In this document: positions 3,719-36,083 of the stretch, in pieces
How positions within the stretch are numbered: the first letter of the stretch is position 1
Layout: each line of letters begins with the position of its first letter
From: Escherichia phage vB_EcoS_HSE2
Sequence record: MG252615.1
Reading direction: 5' to 3' (one strand)
Length of the DNA stretch: 41,317 bases
Translations under genes and position numbers: made by a program
Notes under the pieces: generated by a model
What the model was told of the DNA's origin: nothing
Databases searched by the model: none
What the model saw: only the letters and a program-made list of their open reading frames with translations

Positions 3719-5145
3719 TTCTTACCTCGTCTCTTCATGTAATTAAGCAACTCTTCTTGGACAGATTTCTTCTCGTCTGTACGCGCGGCAACAACCTCGT
3801 CCAGCGTGTCTTTAGCAACGATATGATACAGGAACACCGGGCGCTCGTGGCCCGCCTGTTTCTGGCGTACCGGGCCTATACGCTCGACAACCTGCAAATA
3901 GTGCTCAAGGTTCCAGCCTTGCGAAATAAACGCCAGATGATGTCCGCCGTCCTGTAAATTCAAACCATGGCCGGCTGACGCGGGGTGCACGCATAGGATT
4001 TCGATTTCGCCACGGTTCCACGCTTCCATCTGCTTATTGCCCTTCGCGCCTTTTGCAAAAGCCTGTGCCTGAGGGAATCGCTTAAGGATGCGCTCCAGTT
4101 CGTGCTTAAACTGATAGGCTACCAGTAACGGCGCACCCTGCAACTCCTCGGCAATGGACTCCAGCGCGTCCAGTTTCGTGTCGTGCACTTTCTCCCAGTC
4201 TTTGGTTGCCTCACCGTCTGGCCCCGACACATATACGGCACCGGAGGCAATCTGCAAACACTTTGACGTCTTCGCCGCCGCGTTAGCCGCTTCAACTTCT
4301 CCGCTCTCCAGTTCCGCGAATAACTTCTCCTCCATATCGATGTACGCCTGACGCGCCTTCTTCGGCAGGTCGATTTCAACCTGCACTATAATAGGCGCTT
4401 CACATCCGAACCACTCAGCGGCGTCAATCGTGAGACTAATGTCCTTCATCTTCTGGTGGATCTCATTATCTGCACCAGGACGCGCATGATACTCCCGCGC
4501 CATCGCCGACTTACCTTTTTGCACAGAGTTGAACCAGCGGTCGGTGAACGCAGTGTACGATGAACCGAGGCGCTCGCCAGCGTCGATAAACCAGTTCTGG
4601 CCCCACAGGTCTTTGAGGCCGTTAGGCGACGGTGTACCAGTCAGGTTGATAAAACGCTTAACCTTTCCGAACGCCACTTTACTTAGCGCCTTCGCCCTCT
4701 TGCTACCGCCAGACCGGCTACGGAATGATTTAAGCTTCGTGCTTTCATCGGCAACAATAACAGTAAAAGGCCAGTCGTCTTTGCCATAGTAGTCAATCAG
4801 CCACTCGATAACTTCGTAGTTCGTGCATACCACGTTAGCGTCCGACTCCAGCGCCGCGATGCGGCGCTTCTCCGAACCAGTTGCGTCTACGACACTCAGA
4901 CAAGGGAAATTCCAACGTGCCTGTTCCGCGGGCCATGTGCCAGACGCAACTCGCAGCGGGGCGAGGATTAACACTCGGTCGTCGTCATTAAGTTGCCCAT
5001 TACGGAACAGTCGATTGAGAACCCACATTGTCGACGAGGTCTTGCCGCCGCCCATACCGCACCAGATATTGCAACGTGGGTGCTGTAGCATAAACGACGT
5101 CATGAGCTTCTGGTACTCTCGACGGATAAATTTAGACATAATCAA
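3715..5145 (-). CDS. Superfamily 2 (SNF2/DEAD-like) DNA helicase
   Basis: Walker A GMGGGKT near N-terminus, DExx box (IVADEST), helicase C-terminal region. Confidence 0.7.
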   Translation of the reverse strand: MIMSKFIRREYQKLMTSFMLQHPRCNIWCGMGGGKTSSTMWVLNRLFRNGQLNDDDRVLILAPLRVASGTWPAEQARWNFPCLSVVDATGSEKRRIAALESDANVVCTNYEVIEWLIDYYGKDDWPFTVIVADESTKLKSFRSRSGGSKRAKALSKVAFGKVKRFINLTGTPSPNGLKDLWGQNWFIDAGERLGSSYTAFTDRWFNSVQKGKSAMAREYHARPGADNEIHQKMKDISLTIDAAEWFGCEAPIIVQVEIDLPKKARQAYIDMEEKLFAELESGEVEAANAAAKTSKCLQIASGAVYVSGPDGEATKDWEKVHDTKLDALESIAEELQGAPLLVAYQFKHELERILKRFPQAQAFAKGAKGNKQMEAWNRGEIEILCVHPASAGHGLNLQDGGHHLAFISQGWNLEHYLQVVERIGPVRQKQAGHERPVFLYHIVAKDTLDEVVAARTDEKKSVQEELLNYMKRRGKK

Positions 5146-5366: not shown

Positions 5367-5651
5367 CTAACTATAATAGCTCGCTATTAGGGTGTCAACC
5401 TGTTTAAACGAACCGACGACAAAAACATTCGCACCACGTTTACGCATCCGCTCGTGCTCGCGTAACTGGTGCGGGTCAGGCTTCGTGTTTTCGTCTTTCT
5501 TAACCTCGACGAACCAGACGATGCCGCCTGGGAGAATTGCCAGCAGGTCGGGGGCGCCGGAACGTCCTTCGTAGGAGAGCTTACGAACGAGGCCGCCAAT
5601 GGCCTCGAATCGCTCTTTTGCGTATTTCTGAATCTTGCCTTCCGGGGTCAT
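5367..5651 (-). CDS. VRR-NUC domain nuclease (PD-(D/E)XK fold)
   Basis: GAPDLL...VWFVEVKK motif pattern, about 94 aa. Confidence 0.6.
   Translation of the reverse strand: MTPEGKIQKYAKERFEAIGGLVRKLSYEGRSGAPDLLAILPGGIVWFVEVKKDENTKPDPHQLREHERMRKRGANVFVVGSFKQVDTLIASYYS
5370..5398 (-). promoter_or_regulatory. Sigma70-type early promoter with palindromic operator in spacer
   Basis: Minus strand TTGACA, 17-nt spacer, TATAGT; spacer carries AATAGC-TC-GCTATT (plus-strand 5375..5388). Confidence 0.6.
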
Positions 5652-9183: not shown

Positions 9184-9675
9184 TTATTTGCCGTGGTTTT
9201 CGTGGAAACCGTACTTAACTTCTGCAGCCTTTCTCGCGGCTATTGCGTCGTCGATAGTTTCGAAACGTCCGAGATGAATTACTCGCTTCTTAACTTTTAT
9301 CTCAGCTCGCCATTTTCCGCGGCTTTTATCAAACCTAACACCCGTCACACCGGACGTGTTGTTGCGAGCTAAAGATAAATTACGGCTGTTCTCTTTTCGG
9401 GTTGTTTTCCTCAAATTAGAAAGAAGATTATTTTCTCGATTATGGTCGATATGGTCTATCTCCTCTCCGGGTTGAAGTTTATTTTCAGGCTTCATCATAT
9501 CCCATATAATTCTATGCGCCTGAAATGTCCTTCCGTGTAAACGGACGCACACATAACCCCAATTACGAACAGCAGCAACTTCGCTCCCGGCGGGCGCGCG
9601 ATTGCTGTTAGTTACGCGCCAATATAACTTACCAGTGTTGGTGTCATACCTAAAATAATCTCCCCATTTAATCAT
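9184..9675 (-). CDS. HNH homing endonuclease with C-terminal AP2 DNA-binding domain
   Basis: HNH motif IDHIDHNRENN...N; AP2-like GVTGVRFDKSRGKWRAEIKV...HLGRFETIDDAIAARKAAEVKYG; ATGA overlap with upstream gene. Confidence 0.75.
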   Translation of the reverse strand: MIKWGDYFRYDTNTGKLYWRVTNSNRAPAGSEVAAVRNWGYVCVRLHGRTFQAHRIIWDMMKPENKLQPGEEIDHIDHNRENNLLSNLRKTTRKENSRNLSLARNNTSGVTGVRFDKSRGKWRAEIKVKKRVIHLGRFETIDDAIAARKAAEVKYGFHENHGK

Positions 9676-10928
9676 TCCAAATCCTCCTCTGTTACCCCTT
9701 TCCACTCAGGTCGTTTGTCGTCTGCTGCGGCGATTGTCGGTCGACCAGGATTACGGATAATGAATTCCGTCAGTTCTTCTTCTGGGATAACTTTCACGGC
9801 TGCTGTAGGGGTAATGATTGACTTAGCCATAACTTTATCTCCAAATTTAGCAATAACTGCCTCTGGGTCCGCCCAGGAGCGATTGCCACCCCGCCCTTCA
9901 ACCAGTTTGTACCCCGGCACTTTCTTACCGGAATGCAACGCAGTAGCCATAGCTTTTTCAACCTTGTCGATGTGCTGGCGCAACAACGGCAACTTCTCAT
10001 ACTCAGCTACTAGTTGCTCCGGCGTAAGCTCAAGTGCAAAGTCGTCCTCCAGTTCTTCCGCCAGCACAGAATTAACCGTCTTTGTACGCGCGGCGCATTG
10101 TTCTGAGAACCGACACCACTGACAACCATCGACCGACGGTTTGAAATCCGACGCTTTAAGGTTCTTCTTACCGCGGAAATAAGCATCAAGCGCTAACAGC
10201 GCGCGTTTCTGTGCGAACTTAGCGAACAGTTCCAGACCTTCAACCGAGATGTCCCACTCCGACGCACCGCCCGCGTATGGCTGGAAGATGACCAGACGAA
10301 CCACGGTGATGTTATAACGTCTCTTGAGTCGGCGATAAACACCAAGAGCGTAAAGCATGAGCTGCTTGTTTTCTTTCGCTTCGACACGATGCCGTCCAGT
10401 TTTCAGGTCGCCGATAATGAGCATGTGCTCGTCGGAGTTAGCCAGTTCCCGCACGGCAACAAGGTCAGCCGTTCCGAACGTCTCAACGCCTTCGTACCCT
10501 GGGTGCAATACCTCAGTAAGATTGACGCGCATTTCCAGCTTGGCGTATGTCGCTACATCGATAATCGCTTTGCAGTAGTCGGTGTACTTTCGCACCTGTT
10601 CAATCATGTCCGCCGTAATCAGTACCGCACCTTTCATCGGGCTGATAAGCGCCTTAATCTGGCCTTTACCCTCATCCAGCACGTAAGTACCGACTTCGCG
10701 CTCTAACGGCAACGCAGTTCCGCGAATATAAGCGTTGAGGTGGACCTCCGCTATTGTGTGGCACGCGGTCCCTGTAACGGCGGATTTACCAGACGTGTTG
10801 GGGATATCTTTTTCGCATGCCAGTGATGCAGCACAACTCAGCCACTTTTTAGCACCTGACGGCGACAGTAAGGCGTGCACGTCATTATTGCCGCCGCGTT
10901 CTTTTAAAATCATGCCCTGTTCTCCCAC
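9672..10928 (-). CDS. PD-(D/E)XK nuclease, Cas4/RecB-like, with 4-Cys cluster
   Basis: DLKTGRH...E.K...QLMLYALG nuclease motifs; N-terminal Cys plus C-terminal CQWCRFSEQC. Confidence 0.6.
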   Translation of the reverse strand: MGEQGMILKERGGNNDVHALLSPSGAKKWLSCAASLACEKDIPNTSGKSAVTGTACHTIAEVHLNAYIRGTALPLEREVGTYVLDEGKGQIKALISPMKGAVLITADMIEQVRKYTDYCKAIIDVATYAKLEMRVNLTEVLHPGYEGVETFGTADLVAVRELANSDEHMLIIGDLKTGRHRVEAKENKQLMLYALGVYRRLKRRYNITVVRLVIFQPYAGGASEWDISVEGLELFAKFAQKRALLALDAYFRGKKNLKASDFKPSVDGCQWCRFSEQCAARTKTVNSVLAEELEDDFALELTPEQLVAEYEKLPLLRQHIDKVEKAMATALHSGKKVPGYKLVEGRGGNRSWADPEAVIAKFGDKVMAKSIITPTAAVKVIPEEELTEFIIRNPGRPTIAAADDKRPEWKGVTEEDLE

Positions 10929-15222: not shown

Positions 15223-15251
15223 TTGCACACCCCAACATAATAGGTTACTAT
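15223..15251 (+). promoter_or_regulatory. Middle-class promoter (conserved 30-nt family) with operator palindrome
   Basis: TTGCAC-ACCCCAACATAATAGGT-TACTAT; palindrome AATAGG-TT-ACTATT (15239..15252). Confidence 0.6.
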
Positions 15252-15370
15252 TCACTTATCGAGGCGAGGCAGGGAGCCAACCTTTAATAAGGTCAGTAGC
15301 GGCGACGAGCATACGAAGAGTCGATAAGCCCGGTAAGCAGAACCTAAATTAACTAAGAGAGAAAAGCTGG

Positions 15371-26285: not shown

Positions 26286-26354
26286 TATGAACATCGCGGT
26301 GATAGCCGCAGCCGATACCCACAAAACAAAATAAAACATCACACTATTTGTCAT
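26283..26354 (-). CDS. Hydrophobic peptide (23 aa), third gene of lipoprotein cassette
   Basis: Verified by hand: MTNSVMFYFVLWVSAAAITAMFI; ATGA overlap with lipoprotein stop. Confidence 0.25.
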   Translation of the reverse strand: MTNSVMFYFVLWVSAAAITAMFI

Positions 26355-26695
26355 TTGCATTTCTCGTCGTATGTTTGTTGTAACTGCGACAGACGATTAC
26401 CGGCTGTCATCTCGTCCATAGAAGGCCCGGCGCCCGTGTCCATAAAGAACAGCGGAACAATCAGGAATGCGCCTGTAACACCGAGTACAACGTTAGTACC
26501 TATTTGCTTATTAACACGGTGCGTAGCGTTGGCTTGAGCTTGTTTTGTCGTGGCGATTCTCGATAGTAACTGATTACATGTTGCCGTTGTATCCCCTGCC
26601 TGATAAACCTGTAAAGCCGGGTCTGGCAACGACCTTACGCAACCACTCAAACAAACGGCTACAACACCCGCTACTGCTAATTTAATATATTTCAT
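26351..26695 (-). CDS. Lipoprotein (114 aa) in a moron cassette; candidate superinfection-exclusion / receptor-masking factor
   Basis: Signal peptide with lipobox L-S-G-C; opposite strand to flanking head genes; own promoter and terminator. Confidence 0.55.
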   Translation of the reverse strand: MKYIKLAVAGVVAVCLSGCVRSLPDPALQVYQAGDTTATCNQLLSRIATTKQAQANATHRVNKQIGTNVVLGVTGAFLIVPLFFMDTGAGPSMDEMTAGNRLSQLQQTYDEKCK

Positions 26696-26793: not shown

Positions 26794-26820
26794 GACGGCC
26801 TCCTCGGTTCGATAGAATGA

Positions 26821-26849
26821 ATAGTACCCTATTATATTGGGGTGCGCAA
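26821..26849 (-). promoter_or_regulatory. Middle-class promoter driving the lipoprotein cassette
   Basis: Minus strand TTGCGC-ACCCCAATATAATAGGG-TACTAT; 30-nt core identical to the promoter at 35165..35193. Confidence 0.6.
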
Positions 26850-31453: not shown

Positions 31454-31866
31454 TGGGCTACTTTGAGGACTTAACAAAAGCGTTCGATGTGCCGCTGGTA
31501 GCATTCGGGGCTGCAAACAGCATCAAGGTTGCGCTTGAAAACATCGACGCGCCGACGTCAACCGATACGCCGTATCTGGCAAGTTACATGTTGCTGGCAG
31601 ATACCGAGCAGGCGGATTTGTTCTTCACGGAACAACGCTCAGGTGTTTATCAGGTCGACATTAACTACGCATCGGTGAAAGGTAGCGCGCCAATCAATAA
31701 AATGGCAGACTTACTTAACACGGCGTTTAAAGCAGGTAAGTCATTTTCGCGTAACGACATCTGCGCCGAGGTTCAATCGGTTAGCCTGGGGCCGCTGATT
31801 GTAGAAAACGGATGGGCCAAACGACCATTGTCAATTAACTTTATTGCATTCACCAAGAGGCTGTGA
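31450..31866 (+). CDS. Putative tail terminator protein
   Basis: Gene order immediately upstream of major tail protein. Confidence 0.4.
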   Translation: MMGYFEDLTKAFDVPLVAFGAANSIKVALENIDAPTSTDTPYLASYMLLADTEQADLFFTEQRSGVYQVDINYASVKGSAPINKMADLLNTAFKAGKSFSRNDICAEVQSVSLGPLIVENGWAKRPLSINFIAFTKRL

Positions 31867-33035
31867 ATATGGCTACAACTCCTTTTAAGGGCGCGAATAC
31901 CGCGCAATTCTATGTGGCGGAAGTGACCCCCGGCGTAACACCAAGTAACCCGGTATGGTCGCCGCTGCGTAACACAGGCGGCGTTCCTGCCATCACCCGT
32001 GACACGCTGACCTCCAACGAACTGGACGGCAGCCGCGAAACTACATCCATCCGCACCGGTAACAAGCAGGTTAGCGGTGAATATGCTATTGAGCTTAGCT
32101 CGAAAAGCCAGGATGACTGGCTAGCCGGGGCTTTAGGCTCTACGTGGCAGGCTGGCGTATCTCTGTCAGGGCTATCGATTACCGTCGCACCGGCTGGCAA
32201 GACGTTCACACGCGCTACCGGCAGTTTTATCACTGACGGAGTTGGGGTAGGCGACCTGATTGCGTTTACCGACTTAACAGGCGATAACGCAAAACCATTT
32301 ATTGTTACTGCAGTAACGGATACGGTTGTTACTGGTGCAGGCATCCAACACACCCTGACCACCGGGACAAAAACTAGTAAGGCTAAAACTGGCGACACGT
32401 TGGAAACCGGTAACGCGTGTAAGACGTTCTCTATCCTTACCTGGTACAAAGGCCAGTGCGGCGGTACTGATGCGTACACGTTAACCAAAGGCGTGGAAGT
32501 TTCTGGTTTTACCATCGAACAGGCTGTTAACGCGATGGTAACTGGCAGCTTCCCATTCATCGGTCGCAGTCAGGAGATTCTCACCACGCCGCCGACCGGT
32601 TCCAACTTCTCATCTGTTACTTTTGGTGATGAGCCGTTCTCTTCGGTTGACGTTTCCGTATTCGATGGTTCTACACCGTTGCGTTGCGACAGCCTAACCA
32701 TCACCAACGACAACAGCGCGTCCGCACAGTTCGAACTCGGCAACACTAACGTTGCGTTTGTGGAGCGTAGCCGCGCAGCTAACACCTTTTCCATCTCCGG
32801 TAAGTTGTACGACATGGCGATGATTCAGAAGTTTATCAACGAGCAACAGGTTGAGATTAACTCTATTCTGGCGGGGGTAAACGGGGCTATGTCTTTCAGC
32901 CTGAAACGCGCAGAGCTTACGGCGGTTACGCCAGAAATATCTGGCCCGGAATCAATTACCCAAAGTATAGAAGGGCAGTCCACAGGCAACCAGTATCAGT
33001 CGTCTATCGTAATTCAACGTATTAGTTACGTATAA
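31863..33035 (+). CDS. Major tail (tube) protein
   Basis: 390-aa Thr/Gly/Ser-rich ORF followed by strong terminator; upstream of chaperone and tape-measure genes. Confidence 0.6.
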   Translation: MNMATTPFKGANTAQFYVAEVTPGVTPSNPVWSPLRNTGGVPAITRDTLTSNELDGSRETTSIRTGNKQVSGEYAIELSSKSQDDWLAGALGSTWQAGVSLSGLSITVAPAGKTFTRATGSFITDGVGVGDLIAFTDLTGDNAKPFIVTAVTDTVVTGAGIQHTLTTGTKTSKAKTGDTLETGNACKTFSILTWYKGQCGGTDAYTLTKGVEVSGFTIEQAVNAMVTGSFPFIGRSQEILTTPPTGSNFSSVTFGDEPFSSVDVSVFDGSTPLRCDSLTITNDNSASAQFELGNTNVAFVERSRAANTFSISGKLYDMAMIQKFINEQQVEINSILAGVNGAMSFSLKRAELTAVTPEISGPESITQSIEGQSTGNQYQSSIVIQRISYV

Positions 33036-33062
33036 AACTAAGGCCCCGAAAGGGGCCTTTTC
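33036..33062. terminator. Bidirectional terminator, near-identical to the one at 3361..3387
   Basis: AAGGCCCC-GAAA-GGGGCCTT plus T-run; A-rich upstream. Confidence 0.7.
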
Positions 33063-33293
33063 TCACTCATCAATGTTACTCCTGTATTCTCGTAACTTCT
33101 CCAGGCTTTCAATTGCTTCTGCTAAGTCGGTTCCAGTGTCCTTGTGCCCTCGAAGGCCCATACACAATAGCTTCTTCAATGCGTGCTGTAACGCAGGGTC
33201 GCGGATGTCGAAAGCACGTAGCACATCGTAAACGTCTACAGTCATAGTGCTGCCGTGAGTGTTTGTCATTGTGCGGTTGTATTTTGAAGTCAT
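33063..33293 (-). CDS. Hypothetical protein (76 aa), last gene of leftward cassette
   Basis: ORF track. Confidence 0.4.
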   Translation of the reverse strand: MTSKYNRTMTNTHGSTMTVDVYDVLRAFDIRDPALQHALKKLLCMGLRGHKDTGTDLAEAIESLEKLREYRSNIDE

Positions 33294-33306
33294 AAATCAC
33301 TTTTCC

Positions 33307-33777
33307 CTACTCATGGTTTTCATGGAAACCGTATTTACTCTCGGCGGCTTTACGCGCAGCAACCGCTACATCAAAATCGTCGTAAAGCCCTAAATGCACT
33401 TGTTTGTAGTTAACTTTTATAAACGCGCGCCACTTACCCGCGGCTTTGTGGAAACTTACGCCTGTAGCCCCGGATTTATTTATCTTTCGCATAGTTTTAT
33501 TTTTACTGTTCCCTGTATTGTCGGTGGCGCGTAGATTTTCTATTCTATTGTCTAGCCTGTTATGGTTTATGTGGTCTATTTGAGTTTTCCTGTCTAAGTT
33601 GCATTTATTATAAAGACACCATGCTATGCGGTGGACATACACTGTTTTACCACCCATACCGCAGCACAGATAACCTCTTACACCAACCGTACCAACCTCA
33701 GCACCAGTAGATAACCTGGTAACCCTCCCAGTCTCAGGGCAGTATTTAAATTGTTTTGAAACATCAAGATATTTCAT
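33307..33777 (-). CDS. HNH homing endonuclease with AP2 domain (paralog of 9184..9675)
   Basis: HNH motif IDHINHNRLDNRIEN; AP2-like GATGVSFHKAAGKWRAFIKV...AARKAAESKYGFHENHE. Confidence 0.75.
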   Translation of the reverse strand: MKYLDVSKQFKYCPETGRVTRLSTGAEVGTVGVRGYLCCGMGGKTVYVHRIAWCLYNKCNLDRKTQIDHINHNRLDNRIENLRATDNTGNSKNKTMRKINKSGATGVSFHKAAGKWRAFIKVNYKQVHLGLYDDFDVAVAARKAAESKYGFHENHE

Positions 33778-34904
33778 CTTAGCATCTCCGGTGAGATTGA
33801 AAGCCTACCTACTTCCCCGAACTCTGAACTATAGGTTATGACATTAGCGGACCTCTTAGACATCCACCCGCCGCGAGAAGCATATGCATCTTTCGCCGCG
33901 AGAGTGCGATGCTGCTCCACTACCATATTCCTACTTTCTACGATCTTTTGGTGGTGGAGATGCCCAACATGTGCATAACTGTACTCGCTTTCGCCGAATG
34001 CTTTTCTGAACTTAGCTATCATAATGGGTTCGACCACCTCAAACCGGCATTTATGCCCGTGTGTAAAGAACAGAGTCGTTTTGCCGTGTTGCACCATCTT
34101 GTAAACATCCGGCGACGTATCGACGAACACACGCGGCTCATTGTCATATAGCGTGCTGAACATCTCAGCTAACCAAATCATTCCGCTTTCGTCGTGGTTA
34201 CCTTGAACGATTAAAAGTTTTACTGTGTGATGCTTAACCAGCGCCATATCGACAACACGACGCACCATACGAATCATGTAGCGAACTAGTTTCTGATAGC
34301 GAGTATCGGCGTCTAACACATGACGCGACTCAGGGGTAACGGCATCAAGACTATCGAAGTGCGCGAAGTCTCCTAGCAGATTAATAACTCCTGTTCCCGC
34401 GTCCGGTGCTTTCTGAAACGCCGCGTCGAACCATCGAGAGAACAGGTCTTCTGCAATCTTCATGTCCCAGTCGTCGCCGCTCTCGTCTGCCCATGCAAGC
34501 ATACCGAGATGGAAATCAGACACAGTGTAAAGATTGAGAAGTTTATCGTCGCGTTTGGCGCGAGTCGCTTTAACAGGCGCAACAGGTGTAATCTCTGACT
34601 TCATGCCTTCAATTACGGCTTTCATCAACTCGACCTGACGTTCAGCATCGGTGTCAGTCTTAACCCATTGCAACTTAGTGTTGCCGAACTCGTCCACCAG
34701 GGACGACGTGCCTTTAATCTTGTAGCCGTCCGGCACAAGGTGACTAACGTCGCGCCCGTGGCCTACACCTTTCTTAGCCAGCTTCGCTTTACGGATACGA
34801 ATAACGCGGTCTGAGATGCCGTATTTACGGGCGATATCAATAATCTTCATCCCGGCGTTCAATTCTTCCTGTAACTGTTCGTCGGTTATTTTCTTCTGGG
34901 CCAT
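33774..34904 (-). CDS. Calcineurin-like metallophosphoesterase with N-terminal HTH domain
   Basis: Phosphoesterase motifs DFHLG, GDFAHFD, GNHDE, THGH, GHLHH in canonical order; N-terminal IIDIARKYGISDRVIRIRKAKL helix-turn-helix; GAGGAAG Shine-Dalgarno. Confidence 0.65.
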   Translation of the reverse strand: MAQKKITDEQLQEELNAGMKIIDIARKYGISDRVIRIRKAKLAKKGVGHGRDVSHLVPDGYKIKGTSSLVDEFGNTKLQWVKTDTDAERQVELMKAVIEGMKSEITPVAPVKATRAKRDDKLLNLYTVSDFHLGMLAWADESGDDWDMKIAEDLFSRWFDAAFQKAPDAGTGVINLLGDFAHFDSLDAVTPESRHVLDADTRYQKLVRYMIRMVRRVVDMALVKHHTVKLLIVQGNHDESGMIWLAEMFSTLYDNEPRVFVDTSPDVYKMVQHGKTTLFFTHGHKCRFEVVEPIMIAKFRKAFGESEYSYAHVGHLHHQKIVESRNMVVEQHRTLAAKDAYASRGGWMSKRSANVITYSSEFGEVGRLSISPEMLR

Positions 34905-34942
34905 GCTTACTTCCTCGTGTTTAGGATTTGTCTTATAGTAGC

Positions 34943-35149
34943 CTACTTCTCTTTCACGTTCGAGTTGCAAGCCCAGATTAAAATAAATACCCACGGCAGC
35001 AGAACCCAGCCAAGAAACAGGTTAGCCATGAATATAGCTAACTTCGCTTTATGGTTACGGAAGTACGCAACCAGGAAAGGTGCGAAATAAGCGAGCAGTG
35101 CAAACAGAATTAAGGAAACTGGTAAACTGGACATTTTAAACCCCTTCAT
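34943..35149 (-). CDS. Superinfection-immunity-like small membrane protein (Imm family-like)
   Basis: Two TM segments with R.H..KLAIF..NLFLGW...PW...LIWA, matching my recollection of the Imm-superinfection family consensus. Confidence 0.55.
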   Translation of the reverse strand: MKGFKMSSLPVSLILFALLAYFAPFLVAYFRNHKAKLAIFMANLFLGWVLLPWVFILIWACNSNVKEK

Positions 35150-35164
35150 TGTTGGTGTAAGTGA

Positions 35165-35193
35165 ATAGTACCCTATTATATTGGGGTGTGCAA
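35165..35193 (-). promoter_or_regulatory. Middle-class promoter driving the Imm/phosphoesterase/HNH cassette
   Basis: Minus strand TTGCAC-ACCCCAATATAATAGGG-TACTAT; transcription start only about 9 nt before the Imm ATG. Confidence 0.6.
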
Positions 35194-35301
35194 GTAATGT
35201 GATAGAATAATTTTGCGCCTAGTGTCGCACATGAAAAGCGGGTGGTTCCCGTCTGGCGCATTTACCATTAACCTGTAACCTCTTAACCAAAGGATTAAAG
35301 A

Positions 35302-35718
35302 ATGAAACTTTCTGATTTTTATTACGAAGCTGAGGCAGAAAAAGGCGCCCGTATGCCGATCCCACTGAAAGACGGCACCGATTCAGGGGAGTGGCTGAAC
35401 GTTGTTTCACCGGAGGCAGACGTTGCGGTTAAAGCCATGCGTGCATTTACCCTGGCGTACCGCGCGTCGTTAGGTAAACTGAAGCCGCTTCGTGATAAAT
35501 GCGAGGAACTGAAAGATTTCTCGGAATATAACATTAAGATGGAAGACGCCGCGACGGACCTTAACCGCCAGTTAGCACTTGAACTGGTTAACGGTTGGAG
35601 TCTCGACGATGAATTTAATAAAGAGAACCTGAATACTCTTTTTTCACAATATAAACGCCTCGCTGAACACGTTGTTGTTTTCCACAACGAACAGCTTCAC
35701 CAATTGCAGGAAAAGTAG
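35302..35718 (+). CDS. Tail assembly chaperone (G-like)
   Basis: Acidic 138-aa protein upstream of tape measure with overlapping downstream ORF in -1 frame. Confidence 0.5.
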   Translation: MKLSDFYYEAEAEKGARMPIPLKDGTDSGEWLNVVSPEADVAVKAMRAFTLAYRASLGKLKPLRDKCEELKDFSEYNIKMEDAATDLNRQLALELVNGWSLDDEFNKENLNTLFSQYKRLAEHVVVFHNEQLHQLQEK

Positions 35719-36083
35719 ACGCGTTGCTCCAGTTTGCCCGTTGGAACTTCATAGCCCGCCACAAACGGCGGGAGTTTGACAGTATTGCCGACGGGCATAA
35801 AGCCGCGCTAATTGCTATGGGGGTTATGCAAGATGCGCCGGAAGCAACGCAGGACACCGGGCCGGAATGCCCCCCTGAACTATTAACCACCTTCGAGAAG
35901 TACCGGGAAATCAAATTTACCCGCCGAGTGGATGACGATGGCATCAAGATGTACCCGCGCGAACAGTTAAGATGGTCGGATTTAGTGGCATACAGCACCG
36001 TTTCAGGCCAGAATATAGGCATGTTTGAATCTGACATCATCATGAGCTTAGACGCTATTTTCGAGGGTAGAAACGATGGCTGA
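35667..36083 (+). CDS. T-like extension reached by probable -1 frameshift from the chaperone (GT product)
   Basis: -1 frame open from 35667, overlapping the last 17 codons of the G-like ORF and ending at the tape-measure start. Confidence 0.4.
   Translation, partial: TRCCFPQRTASPIAGKVDALLQFARWNFIARHKRREFDSIADGHKAALIAMGVMQDAPEATQDTGPECPPELLTTFEKYREIKFTRRVDDDGIKMYPREQLRWSDLVAYSTVSGQNIGMFESDIIMSLDAIFEGRNDG

What the first reader, a model, noticed from the sequence alone, without database searches (positions are those of the whole stretch)
33063..35193. Leftward four-gene cassette inside the tail module: Imm-like membrane protein, HTH-metallophosphoesterase, HNH-AP2 endonuclease, small protein
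Between the major tail gene and the tail chaperones, four genes run on the opposite strand from their own conserved promoter (35165..35193) and stop at a bidirectional terminator (33036..33062). The first product looks like a superinfection-immunity membrane protein. The second joins an N-terminal helix-turn-helix to a complete calcineurin-like phosphoesterase motif set (DFHLG, GDFAHFD, GNHDE, GHLHH). The pairing suggests a phage-carried exclusion module: a membrane block plus a DNA-directed phosphoesterase or nuclease against incoming DNA. Alternatively the enzyme could hydrolyse nucleotide second messengers of host defence. The HNH gene suggests the cassette is mobile.
Basis: partly seen in the sequence, partly recalled or inferred. 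Interest (0 to 1): 0.8.

Follow-up and report, generated by a model that had tools for sequence, protein, structure and literature searches.

The report
Conserved accessory operon in phage tail module
The four leftward genes are real, but they are a standard, already-annotated accessory operon of Kagunavirus/Jersey-like coliphages, made of independent, swappable parts rather than a coordinated two-part exclusion device.

Summary
Four minus-strand genes lie between the tail tube gene and the tail chaperones, with their own promoter and a bidirectional terminator. Homology confirms all four: Imm (PF14373), HTH-metallophosphoesterase (MPE, PHROG 704, all catalytic motifs), an HNH/AP2 endonuclease, and a 76-aa protein.

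The window is a Kagunavirus-like phage. GenBank phage EC3-1 carries the same four genes, already annotated, at 90.7% identity.

Comparison with relatives argues against the proposed "membrane block plus nuclease" module:
- **MPE:** it is the fixed core of the operon. Homologs occur in 2,042 phage records, including T1 gp16, and outside this subfamily they have no Imm and no tail context.
- **Imm slot:** variable. 34 of 50 subfamily loci have Imm; 16 have unrelated small secreted or one-TM proteins.
- **Slot after MPE:** also variable (p76, a PNKP-type phosphatase plus kinase, or HNH).
- **HNH gene:** a clean 484-bp free-standing homing-endonuclease insertion with an apparent co-conversion tract in the MPE 3' end. 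The HNH is mobile; the cassette is not.

MPE function remains unproven. The fold matches Mre11/PolD-DP1 nucleases and a cyclic-nucleotide phosphodiesterase equally well. The family-wide HTH favours a DNA substrate.

Seen in passing: a shared palindromic promoter element, and a covarying int-alpA-like leader RNA upstream of the chaperone gene.

The parts
33040..33059 (.). Bidirectional intrinsic terminator. It ends both the tail tube transcript (+) and the leftward operon (-).
   Evidence: 8-bp GC-rich stem with a 4-nt loop, T-runs on both strands. Annotated as paired terminators in phage Sciku.
33063..33293 (-). p76, a 76-aa soluble protein of unknown function (PHROG 2452). It is the commonest occupant of the variable slot downstream of the MPE.
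   Evidence: PHROG 2452 at E 2e-36. 35 homologs, all small and unnamed. AF2 pLDDT 87.8, a beta-hairpin plus three helices, no PDB fold match. No hydrophobic segment.
33294..33777 (-). 484-bp insertion carrying a free-standing HNH_3/AP2 homing endonuclease gene (CDS 33307-33777, 156 aa).
   Evidence: HNH_3 at E 8e-10, PHROG 99 at E 7e-56. Clean presence/absence against Bas74 and L009, exactly between the MPE stop and the p76 start.
33774..34064 (-). 3' end of the MPE gene (last ~290 nt): a distinct allele linked to the HNH insertion, a putative co-conversion tract or target region.
   Evidence: 96-100% identical between the two phages carrying this HNH. Eleven of the twelve other relatives compared are 65-81% identical here against about 90% upstream; the twelfth (L008) shares the allele over most of the tract and diverges only in the last ~110 nt.
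33774..34904 (-). HTH-metallophosphoesterase, 376 aa, the conserved core gene of the operon (PHROG 704, T1 gp16 family). HTH at aa 8-44 (nt 34773-34883); MPE domain at aa 119-376.
   Evidence: PHROG 704 at E 4e-163. Invariant catalytic residues. AF2 pLDDT 93.6. Foldseek hits to PolD DP1, Mre11 and Rv0805. HTH Pfam hits across family members.
34943..35134 (-). Imm-like two-TM inner-membrane protein (63 aa from the ATG at 35134; the ORF extends to 35149). It occupies the variable first slot.
   Evidence: PF14373 at 48.3 bits. PHROG 1039 at E 5e-23. Two hydrophobic segments at aa 1-26 and 31-58. 100% identical to the K1G protein.
35165..35193 (-). Leftward sigma-70-type promoter TTGCAC-N17-TACTAT, overlapping the palindrome AATAGTACCCTATT (35164-35177).
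   Evidence: Motif recurrence. Conserved as TTGCAx-N17-TAnTAT in Kagunavirus and Jerseyvirus relatives. The palindrome is present at this position in all 45 Guernseyvirinae loci that matched.
35200..35276 (+). Divergent partner: an extended -10 promoter TGaTAGAAT (35200-35208) and a structured 5' leader (35212-35276, int-alpA-like) for the chaperone/tape-measure operon. It shares the control region with the cassette.
   Evidence: TG and TAGAAT are kept while the middle base varies in 44 distinct relatives. Rfam RF02996 at 28.3 bits, below GA 35.8. Covariation.

Best explanation
This is the standard leftward accessory operon that all Guernseyvirinae (Kagunavirus and Jersey-like phages) carry between the tail tube gene and the tail chaperones. 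It is transcribed by host RNA polymerase from a promoter with the same palindromic element as the promoters of the replication and early-gene operons, so it is probably expressed with those genes and not with the flanking tail genes.

The operon has one fixed gene and two swap-in slots.

Fixed gene: an N-terminal helix-turn-helix fused to a binuclear metallophosphoesterase (PHROG 704, the family of phage T1 gp16). I infer that it is a metal-dependent phosphodiesterase brought to DNA by its HTH. It would act as a nuclease in phage DNA metabolism, either processing replication or recombination intermediates or breaking down host DNA.

First slot: here it holds a T4-Imm-family two-TM inner-membrane protein, which most likely blocks DNA entry by superinfecting phages. 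In relatives the slot holds unrelated small envelope proteins.

Slot after the MPE: here it holds a free-standing HNH homing endonuclease that inserted between the MPE and p76. It spreads by cutting HNH-less alleles near the MPE 3' end. The slot also holds p76, whose function is unknown.

The parts work independently.

Shown: gene identities, architecture, slot variability, the HNH insertion and the promoter motif.
Inferred: expression timing, DNA as the MPE substrate, and Imm exclusion activity.
For: - Same four-gene arrangement already annotated in phage EC3-1 (100% coverage, 90.7% identity).
- Operon position conserved in all 50 subfamily loci.
- Slot 1: Imm allele A in 17, Imm allele B in 17, non-Imm secreted or one-TM proteins in 16.
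- Slot 2: p76 only in 16; HAD_PNKP phosphatase plus P-loop kinase in 17; HNH variants in 7.
- MPE homologs in 2,042 phage records (Drexlerviridae including T1 gp16, Dhillonvirus, Vibrio and Campylobacter phages) and 4,618 clusters at 50% identity. Imm homologs occur in only 367 records, nearly all Guernseyvirinae.
- Catalytic residues invariant, and the HTH conserved family-wide.
- Confident model (pLDDT 93.6) whose best solved-structure matches include the PolD DP1 exonuclease and Mre11 nucleases.
- Motif II is GDFAH, a His three residues after the Asp, as in eukaryotic and archaeal Mre11 'GDLFH' (the Mre11 motif is from my own knowledge).
- HNH is a clean 484-bp indel with a linked divergent MPE 3' allele. 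A different HNH (37-42% identity) sits in the same junction in other relatives.
- The palindrome promoters sit upstream of the minus-strand genes in the part of the window whose relatives are annotated as DNA polymerase and helicases, and upstream of the small-ORF cluster.
- GC drops to 0.45-0.49 across the cassette against about 0.52 in the flanks.
Against: - No experiment exists for any member of PHROG 704. No paper was found.
- Foldseek ranks the cyclic-nucleotide phosphodiesterase Rv0805 (E 6e-8) alongside the nucleases (E 4-5e-8), all at low TM-scores (0.35-0.48). The fold therefore does not identify the substrate.
- There is no Rad50/SbcC-like partner and no Mre11 capping domain.
- Early or middle timing rests only on the promoter motif. 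The one Kagunavirus transcriptome is coarse. It places Imm in the temporal class of the polymerase and methylase genes but labels that class 'late'.
- Imm exclusion has been shown only for T4 Imm, not for this 63-aa protein.
Confidence: 0.6

Rival explanations
1. One reading: Imm and the HTH-MPE form one superinfection-exclusion module. The membrane protein blocks entry, and the nuclease destroys any DNA that gets in.
For: The two genes are adjacent, share a strand and are co-transcribed from one promoter. They are paired in 34 of 50 subfamily loci. The HTH suggests DNA binding.
Against: In 16 of 50 close relatives the MPE is kept while Imm is replaced by unrelated proteins. In 29 of 29 sampled loci outside the subfamily the MPE is present without Imm; tblastn finds the MPE in 2,042 phage records but Imm in only 367. 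A nuclease aimed at incoming DNA would need to tell it from the phage's own DNA, and no such mechanism is evident. No PADLOC hit.
Confidence: 0.06
2. The MPE is a counter-defence enzyme that hydrolyses nucleotide second messengers (CBASS, Pycsar, Thoeris or type III CRISPR signals). It would be functionally analogous to Acb1 or Apyc1 but built on an MPE fold like the class III phosphodiesterases.
For: Rv0805, a cyclic-nucleotide phosphodiesterase, is among the top structural matches (E 6e-8). Wide distribution in virulent phages would fit a general counter-defence role.
Against: The N-terminal DNA-binding HTH is conserved across the family, which is unexpected for a small-molecule hydrolase. 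No specific similarity to any known anti-signalling enzyme was found. The match to Rv0805 is at superfamily level only (TM 0.35).
Confidence: 0.1
3. The MPE is a nucleic-acid end-healing phosphoesterase. It would work with the PNKP-type 3'-phosphatase and P-loop kinase to repair broken tRNA or DNA ends, for example after attack by host anticodon nucleases.
For: The MPE is immediately followed by a HAD_PNKP phosphatase (PF25109, E 6e-19) and a P-loop kinase in 17 of 50 subfamily loci, and again in Webervirus KL and in L065. Clostridium thermocellum Pnkp uses an MPE domain for end healing (my own knowledge).
Against: The phosphatase and kinase are absent from this window and from 33 of 50 relatives. 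In T1 the pnk gene is far from gp16. No ligase is present.
Confidence: 0.12
4. The MPE degrades host chromosomal DNA early in infection and so silences host defence genes, as reported for the mycobacteriophage A10ZJ24 Gp48 MPE.
For: A phage MPE with all five motifs, expressed early, damages host DNA and is needed to overcome host defences (PMC12287305). T1 is known to degrade host DNA (my own knowledge).
Against: Similarity to the Gp48/Bxb1 gp47 family is at superfamily level only (hhalign probability 8%). This overlaps with, and is a special case of, the best explanation.
Confidence: 0.12

Closest known systems
The same operon in published Kagunavirus and Jerseyvirus genomes (EC3-1, K1G, Bas74 SonjaBuckley, Sciku, NTEC3)
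   Same: Same position, strand, promoter region, terminator and gene set. EC3-1 has the identical Imm-MPE-HNH-p76 order, already annotated as superinfection immunity protein, calcineurin-like phosphoesterase, HNH endonuclease and hypothetical protein.
   Different: About 9% nucleotide divergence. Other relatives lack the HNH or carry other genes in the two slots.
Phage T4 Imm (Pfam PF14373, superinfection immunity protein)
   Same: Small hydrophobic inner-membrane protein. The full-length Pfam domain matches above the curated threshold. The phage Sciku annotation notes BLASTp similarity to T4 Imm.
   Different: Only 63 aa, with a variable N-terminal TM segment. No experimental exclusion data. 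Encoded by a siphovirus with a different DNA-delivery apparatus.
Mre11/SbcD and PolD-DP1 metallophosphoesterase nucleases
   Same: Same fold and the same five metal-binding motifs. These are the best solved-structure matches.
   Different: No Rad50/SbcC partner, no capping domain, an added N-terminal HTH and beta-hairpin region. TM-scores are only 0.39-0.48 and sequence-level PDB hits are insignificant.
Mycobacteriophage cluster A MPE (Bxb1 gp47, A10ZJ24 Gp48)
   Same: A phage-encoded MPE with all five motifs, expressed early. Gp48 damages host DNA (PMC12287305). gp47 is needed for phage DNA replication and acts as a recombination directionality factor (my own knowledge).
   Different: 255 aa with no HTH. 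Only superfamily-level similarity.
Free-standing HNH homing endonucleases of T-even, T1 and T5-like phages
   Same: Intergenic insertion next to a conserved gene, presence/absence polymorphism among close relatives, and a divergent flanking allele. T1 and a Vibrio phage also have an HNH right after their MPE gene.
   Different: Cleavage site and homing have not been demonstrated.

Membership tests
Pfam PF14373 Imm_superinfect (T4 Imm family) | Match to the family model above the curated gathering score | tested here: met
   48.3 bits against 27.9, covering model positions 2-42 of 42. PHROG 1039 at E 5e-23.
Pfam PF14373 Imm_superinfect (T4 Imm family) | Small membrane protein with hydrophobic transmembrane segments | tested here: met
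   Two segments (aa 1-26 and 31-58) with Kyte-Doolittle mean of at least 1.6 over 19 residues, separated by RNHKAK.
Pfam PF14373 Imm_superinfect (T4 Imm family) | Blocks DNA entry by superinfecting phage | not testable with these tools
   Needs plating and DNA-injection assays.
Calcineurin-like metallophosphoesterase superfamily | Five motifs: DxH, GD, GNH[DE], H, GHxH | tested here: met
   D130, H132, G178, D179, N236, H237, H282 and H317 are invariant, and H315 is conserved in at least 90% of 86 homologs.
Calcineurin-like metallophosphoesterase superfamily | MPE fold | tested here: met
   AF2 pLDDT 93.6. 125 PDB matches at E<=1e-3; all those listed are MPE-fold proteins.
Calcineurin-like metallophosphoesterase superfamily | Pfam model above the gathering score | tested here: inconclusive
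   Metallophos_2 scores 25.7 bits against 27. Only 13-16 of 86 family members reach E<0.01. The family is a divergent branch.
PHROG 704 ('DNA repair exonuclease', T1 gp16 family) | Full-length profile match | tested here: met
   E 4e-163, residues 3-375 on profile positions 1-389 of 390. T1 ST16 is annotated the same way.
Mre11/SbcD nucleases | Rad50/SbcC-type ATPase partner encoded alongside | tested here: not met
   No such gene in the operon or in any relative's flanks.
Mre11/SbcD nucleases | C-terminal capping domain after the nuclease domain | tested here: not met
   In the model the MPE domain runs to the C-terminus (aa 119-376), and the extra domains are N-terminal.
Class III cyclic-nucleotide phosphodiesterases (Rv0805/CpdA) | Specific hydrolysis of cyclic nucleotides | not testable with these tools
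   Only fold-level similarity (E 6e-8, TM 0.35).
Free-standing homing endonuclease gene | HNH catalytic domain | tested here: met
   HNH_3 at 38.7 bits against 24.8. PHROG 99 at E 7e-56.
Free-standing homing endonuclease gene | Precise presence/absence polymorphism between close relatives, with a divergent flank | tested here: met
   484-bp indel at the MPE-stop/p76-start junction. A linked 3' MPE allele.
Free-standing homing endonuclease gene | AP2 DNA-binding domain | tested here: inconclusive
   AP2 scores 19.9 bits against a gathering score of 33.3. The paralog at 9184-9705 scores 30.1.
Two-gene exclusion module (Imm plus nuclease acting together) | Consistent co-occurrence of the two genes | tested here: not met
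   34 of 50 loci within the subfamily and 0 of 29 outside it. 2,042 records have the MPE against 367 with Imm.
Rfam RF02996 int-alpA RNA (leader at 35212-35276) | Score at or above the gathering threshold | tested here: not met
   28.3 bits here and 25.5-33.5 bits in 7 of 7 relatives, all below 35.8.
Rfam RF02996 int-alpA RNA (leader at 35212-35276) | Three-helix structure supported by covariation | tested here: met
   94.4% of cells paired against 31-57% in slid controls. Four pairs have changes on both sides. Based on 13 distinct sequences, so a small sample.

The most novel reading that the evidence does not exclude
The HTH-metallophosphoesterase (PHROG 704, T1 gp16 family, more than 2,000 phage genomes, no experimental data) could be a new class of host-takeover or counter-defence enzyme. 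It might be a DNA-tethered nuclease that destroys host or competing DNA, or a hydrolase of immune signalling nucleotides. The gene slot in front of it would then be a dedicated swap-in locus for superinfection-exclusion proteins.
Probability: 0.2. Interest if true: 0.55.

Novelty: already known. Interest (0 to 1): 0.22.

Why it matters
As it stands this is an ordinary, already-annotated feature of a well-sampled phage subfamily. The proposed Imm-nuclease partnership is contradicted by comparative genomics.

The residual value lies elsewhere:
- The MPE family is one of the more widespread phage proteins with no experimental function, and T1 offers a tractable model for studying it.
- The first slot is a natural catalogue of candidate exclusion proteins for therapeutic Kagunavirus and Jerseyvirus phages.
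- The compact divergent control region, with its shared palindrome and structured leader RNA, may hold the early-to-late switch of these phages.

Tried and rejected
- **PDB sequence searches:** with the MPE alone and with an 86-sequence profile, only insignificant hits.
- **PADLOC:** no defence-system match for Imm, MPE or p76. NCBIfam found nothing useful.
- **BFVD fold search:** only uncharacterised viral proteins.
- **p76:** no Pfam, PDB sequence or PDB fold match. The idea that it is a truncated remnant of a longer gene was dropped, because homologs are standalone proteins, most of them 61-127 aa, and Bas74 has p76 directly after the MPE.
- **MPE HTH as the binder of the AATAGnnnnCTATT palindrome:** no support. 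The palindrome is absent from T1, Dhillonvirus and the other non-Guernseyvirinae MPE loci.
- **Homology to Bxb1 gp47 / A10ZJ24 Gp48:** superfamily level only.
- **Alternative leftward promoter ATCACA-N17-TATAAT:** set aside, because it is not conserved in Jerseyvirus relatives while TTGCAx-N17-TAnTAT is.
- **Literature:** searches for the MPE in Guernseyvirinae or Drexlerviridae found nothing.
- **Transcriptome:** the one Kagunavirus paper and its supplements do not resolve the timing of the MPE gene.
Full report
**What the window is.** The region, and the whole window, match Kagunavirus and Jerseyvirus phages (Guernseyvirinae). 391 phage records match the 2.7-kb region. The best, Escherichia phage EC3-1, covers 100% at 90.7% identity. 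The first 25 kb match the same group, over genes annotated there as DNA polymerase I, helicases, portal and terminase.

**Checking the observation.**
- Four minus-strand ORFs lie at 34943-35149, 33774-34904, 33307-33777 and 33063-33293.
- They sit between a Phage_tube_2 tail tube gene (31863-33035) and two tail assembly chaperone ORFs (35302-35718, 35724-36083).
- The first product matches Imm_superinfect PF14373 above the curated threshold (48.3 against 27.9 bits) and PHROG 1039. It has two hydrophobic segments.
- The second matches PHROG 704 end to end (E 4e-163). It matches Metallophos_2 only weakly (25.7 against 27 bits).
In an alignment of 86 homologs down to 31% identity, D130, H132, G178, D179, N236, H237, H282 and H317 are invariant.
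- The third product is HNH_3 plus a weak AP2 match. The fourth is PHROG 2452 with no Pfam hit.
- A GC-rich hairpin at 33040-33059 has T-runs on both strands.

So the anatomy is confirmed. One correction: Imm probably starts at the ATG at 35134. It has an AAGGGG Shine-Dalgarno sequence, gives the 63 aa annotated in EC3-1, and the ATG at 35149 would lie too close to the predicted transcript start.

**The promoter.**
- On the minus strand, 35193-35165 reads TTGCAC-N17-TACTAT. It overlaps a palindrome, AATAGTACCCTATT (35164-35177).
- The 23-nt motif recurs at 15233-15255 and 26817-26839 with at most 2 mismatches, against 0 expected. The palindrome core recurs about 9 times against 0.1 expected.
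- With flanks shown, two promoter layouts share the palindrome. TTGACA-N17-TATAGT occurs on the minus strand at 5375, 9156 and 11763, upstream of the minus-strand ORFs there, in the part of the window whose relatives are annotated as replication genes.
- TTGCAC-N17-TACTAT occurs at 15239(+), 16600(+), 26820(-) and 35164(-).
- A published Kagunavirus genome paper found the same consensus seven times and called it a 'phage promoter' (PMC9825357).
- The leftward promoter is kept as TTGCAx-N17-TAnTAT in 44 distinct relatives, including Jerseyvirus. The alternative found by the scan tool (ATCACA-N17-TATAAT) is not.
- I infer that the cassette belongs to the regulon of the non-structural genes. This is not shown.
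- The only transcriptome available is coarse. It groups Imm with the polymerase and methylase genes rather than with the tail genes.

**Comparative anatomy, which decides the interpretation.** I collected 79 loci that encode an MPE homolog and typed their neighbours by tblastn.
- In all 50 loci with the Guernseyvirinae context, the MPE sits between the chaperone and tail tube genes on the opposite strand.
- The gene in front of it varies. There are two Imm alleles (17 loci each). The other 16 loci have no Imm. The ORFs in that slot in six of them are unrelated small proteins with a signal peptide or a single TM segment and no PF14373 match; one is PHROG 14165.
- The genes behind it vary too:
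  - p76 alone: 16 loci.
  - A HAD_PNKP 3'-phosphatase plus a P-loop kinase: 17 loci.
  - HNH-containing versions: 7 loci.
  - Other small proteins make up the rest.
- In the 29 loci outside the subfamily, the MPE has neither Imm nor tail genes beside it.
- Examples from GenBank records: it lies before the lysis genes in Drexlerviridae, including T1 gp16. It lies before the terminase in Dhillonvirus. It occupies other contexts in Vibrio and Campylobacter phages.
- By tblastn the MPE occurs in 2,042 phage records. Imm occurs in 367, nearly all Guernseyvirinae.
- A library of 50%-identity representatives holds 4,618 MPE relatives.

The MPE is therefore a widely conserved phage gene with its own role. 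Imm is one of several interchangeable occupants of an adjacent slot. The pairing that motivated the 'exclusion module' reading is not a conserved association.

**The HNH gene.**
- Aligned with Bas74 and an IMG/VR relative, the window and EC3-1 carry a clean 484-bp insertion (33294-33777). It lies exactly between the MPE stop codon and the p76 start codon.
- The last ~290 nt of the MPE gene are 96-100% identical between the two phages that carry this HNH. Eleven of the twelve other relatives compared are only 65-81% identical there, against about 90% for the rest of the gene. The twelfth, L008, shares the allele over most of the tract and diverges only in the last ~110 nt.
- That is the pattern expected of a co-conversion tract next to a homing endonuclease gene.
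- A different HNH (37-42% identity) occupies the same junction in three other relatives.
- T1, a Vibrio phage and L076 also have an HNH directly after their MPE gene.
- So the HNH is mobile and appears to target this conserved gene. It says nothing about mobility of the cassette, which is fixed in the subfamily.

**What the MPE does.**
- The AlphaFold model is confident (pLDDT 93.6). It shows a three-helix HTH (aa 8-44), a beta-hairpin/helix region (61-103) and an MPE domain running to the C-terminus.
- Many family members hit Pfam HTH families (HTH_1, HTH_8, Sigma70_r4_2, GerE), so the DNA-binding head is family-wide.
- Foldseek against the PDB gives PolD DP1 exonuclease (E 4e-8), Mre11 (5e-8) and the cyclic-nucleotide phosphodiesterase Rv0805 (6e-8). 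All have low TM-scores, so the fold does not pick a substrate.
- There is no Rad50-like partner and no capping domain, so it is not an Mre11/SbcD orthologue.
- The mycobacteriophage MPE that damages host DNA (PMC12287305) is related only at superfamily level.
- Weighing the conserved HTH, an Mre11-like GDxxH motif II (the Mre11 motif is from memory) and frequent neighbours in nucleic-acid metabolism, I commit to a DNA-directed phosphodiesterase or nuclease acting in phage DNA metabolism or host DNA breakdown. My confidence in that step is moderate.
- Signal-nucleotide hydrolysis, end-healing with the PNKP-type phosphatase, and the joint exclusion model are kept as rivals at lower weight.

**p76.** Its homologs are standalone proteins, most of them 61-127 aa, without names. 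The model is a beta-hairpin plus three helices (pLDDT 87.8) with no PDB sequence or fold match. Its function stays unknown.

**Side findings.**
- The 150-bp region between Imm and the chaperone gene is a divergent control region.
- On the plus strand, TGaTAGAAT (35200-35208) keeps TG and TAGAAT in relatives while the middle base varies. This is the signature of an extended -10 promoter.
- Right at the predicted 5' end lies a three-helix RNA (35212-35276). It gives a sub-threshold Rfam int-alpA hit here and in 7 of 7 relatives.
- That RNA shows covariation: 94% of cells paired against 31-57% in slid controls, with four pairs changed on both sides.
- This conserved DNA explains the 37-aa 'hypothetical protein' annotated there in some genomes.
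- A second leftward gene with the same promoter type, at 26351-26695, encodes a lipoprotein with a C-terminal hydrophobic segment.

**Verdict.** The cassette is a known, already-annotated feature. The mechanistic link proposed between its first two genes is not supported.

Noticed in passing
window 5375, 9156, 11763, 11807, 15239, 16277, 16600, 26820, 35164 (14-nt cores): The palindrome AATAGnnnnCTATT is embedded in about 9 promoter-like sites, against 0.1 expected. It comes in two layouts, TTGACA-N17-TATAGT and TTGCAC-N17-TACTAT. It looks like the operator of an unidentified dimeric phage regulator that controls the non-structural operons. It is absent from T1 and Dhillonvirus loci that carry the MPE.
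   Followed up: partly
window 35200-35276 (+): An extended -10 promoter (TGnTAGAAT, middle base free in relatives) is followed by a covarying three-helix leader RNA upstream of the tail chaperone gene. It gives recurrent sub-threshold Rfam int-alpA hits (25.5-33.5 bits, GA 35.8). The palindrome centre lies about 44 nt upstream of the predicted start, so one bound regulator could shut the leftward promoter and help the rightward one. That idea is untested.
   Followed up: partly
window 35179-35274 (-): The 37-aa 'hypothetical protein' annotated here in EcoPhCCP1, Bas74 and others overlaps the promoters and the leader RNA. It is probably conserved regulatory DNA rather than a gene.
   Followed up: partly
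window 26351-26695 (-): A second leftward gene sits inside the rightward structural module and is driven by the same TTGCgC-N17-TACTAT promoter type. It encodes a 114-aa lipoprotein (lipobox LSGC) with a C-terminal hydrophobic segment (PHROG 13472, unknown function). It is another candidate exclusion or envelope protein.
   Followed up: partly
window 9184-9705 (-): A second HNH_3/AP2 endonuclease paralog, 48% identical to the one in the cassette, lies among the minus-strand genes of the replication region.
   Followed up: no
L002 1938-2992; L006 3367-4433; 17 of 50 subfamily loci: In relatives the slot after the MPE holds a HAD_PNKP 3'-phosphatase plus a P-loop kinase (annotated dNMP kinase). 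In the 50 loci surveyed this pair never occurs together with p76. The same trio of MPE, phosphatase and kinase recurs in Klebsiella Webervirus KL.
   Followed up: partly
L015 4610-4936; L041 1752-2114; L042 4596-4919; L030 ~4670-4962: In relatives without Imm, the first slot carries unrelated small proteins with signal peptides or a single TM segment. This makes the slot a hot spot for envelope-targeted accessory proteins.
   Followed up: partly
window 35302-35718 and 35724-36083 (+): The second chaperone ORF is in the -1 frame relative to the first, and PHROG 15027 spans both. This is the usual programmed-frameshift arrangement of siphovirus tail chaperones.
   Followed up: no
L081 (phage T1) 40822-42510; L007 4953-6750; L076 5001-6600: An HNH endonuclease gene lies immediately downstream of the MPE gene in T1 (ST16/ST15), a Vibrio phage and another viral contig. 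This suggests that homing endonucleases repeatedly target this conserved gene.
   Followed up: partly
window 33001-35000: GC content drops to 0.45-0.49 across the cassette, against about 0.52 in the flanking tail genes, and GC skew is negative, matching the opposite coding strand.
   Followed up: no
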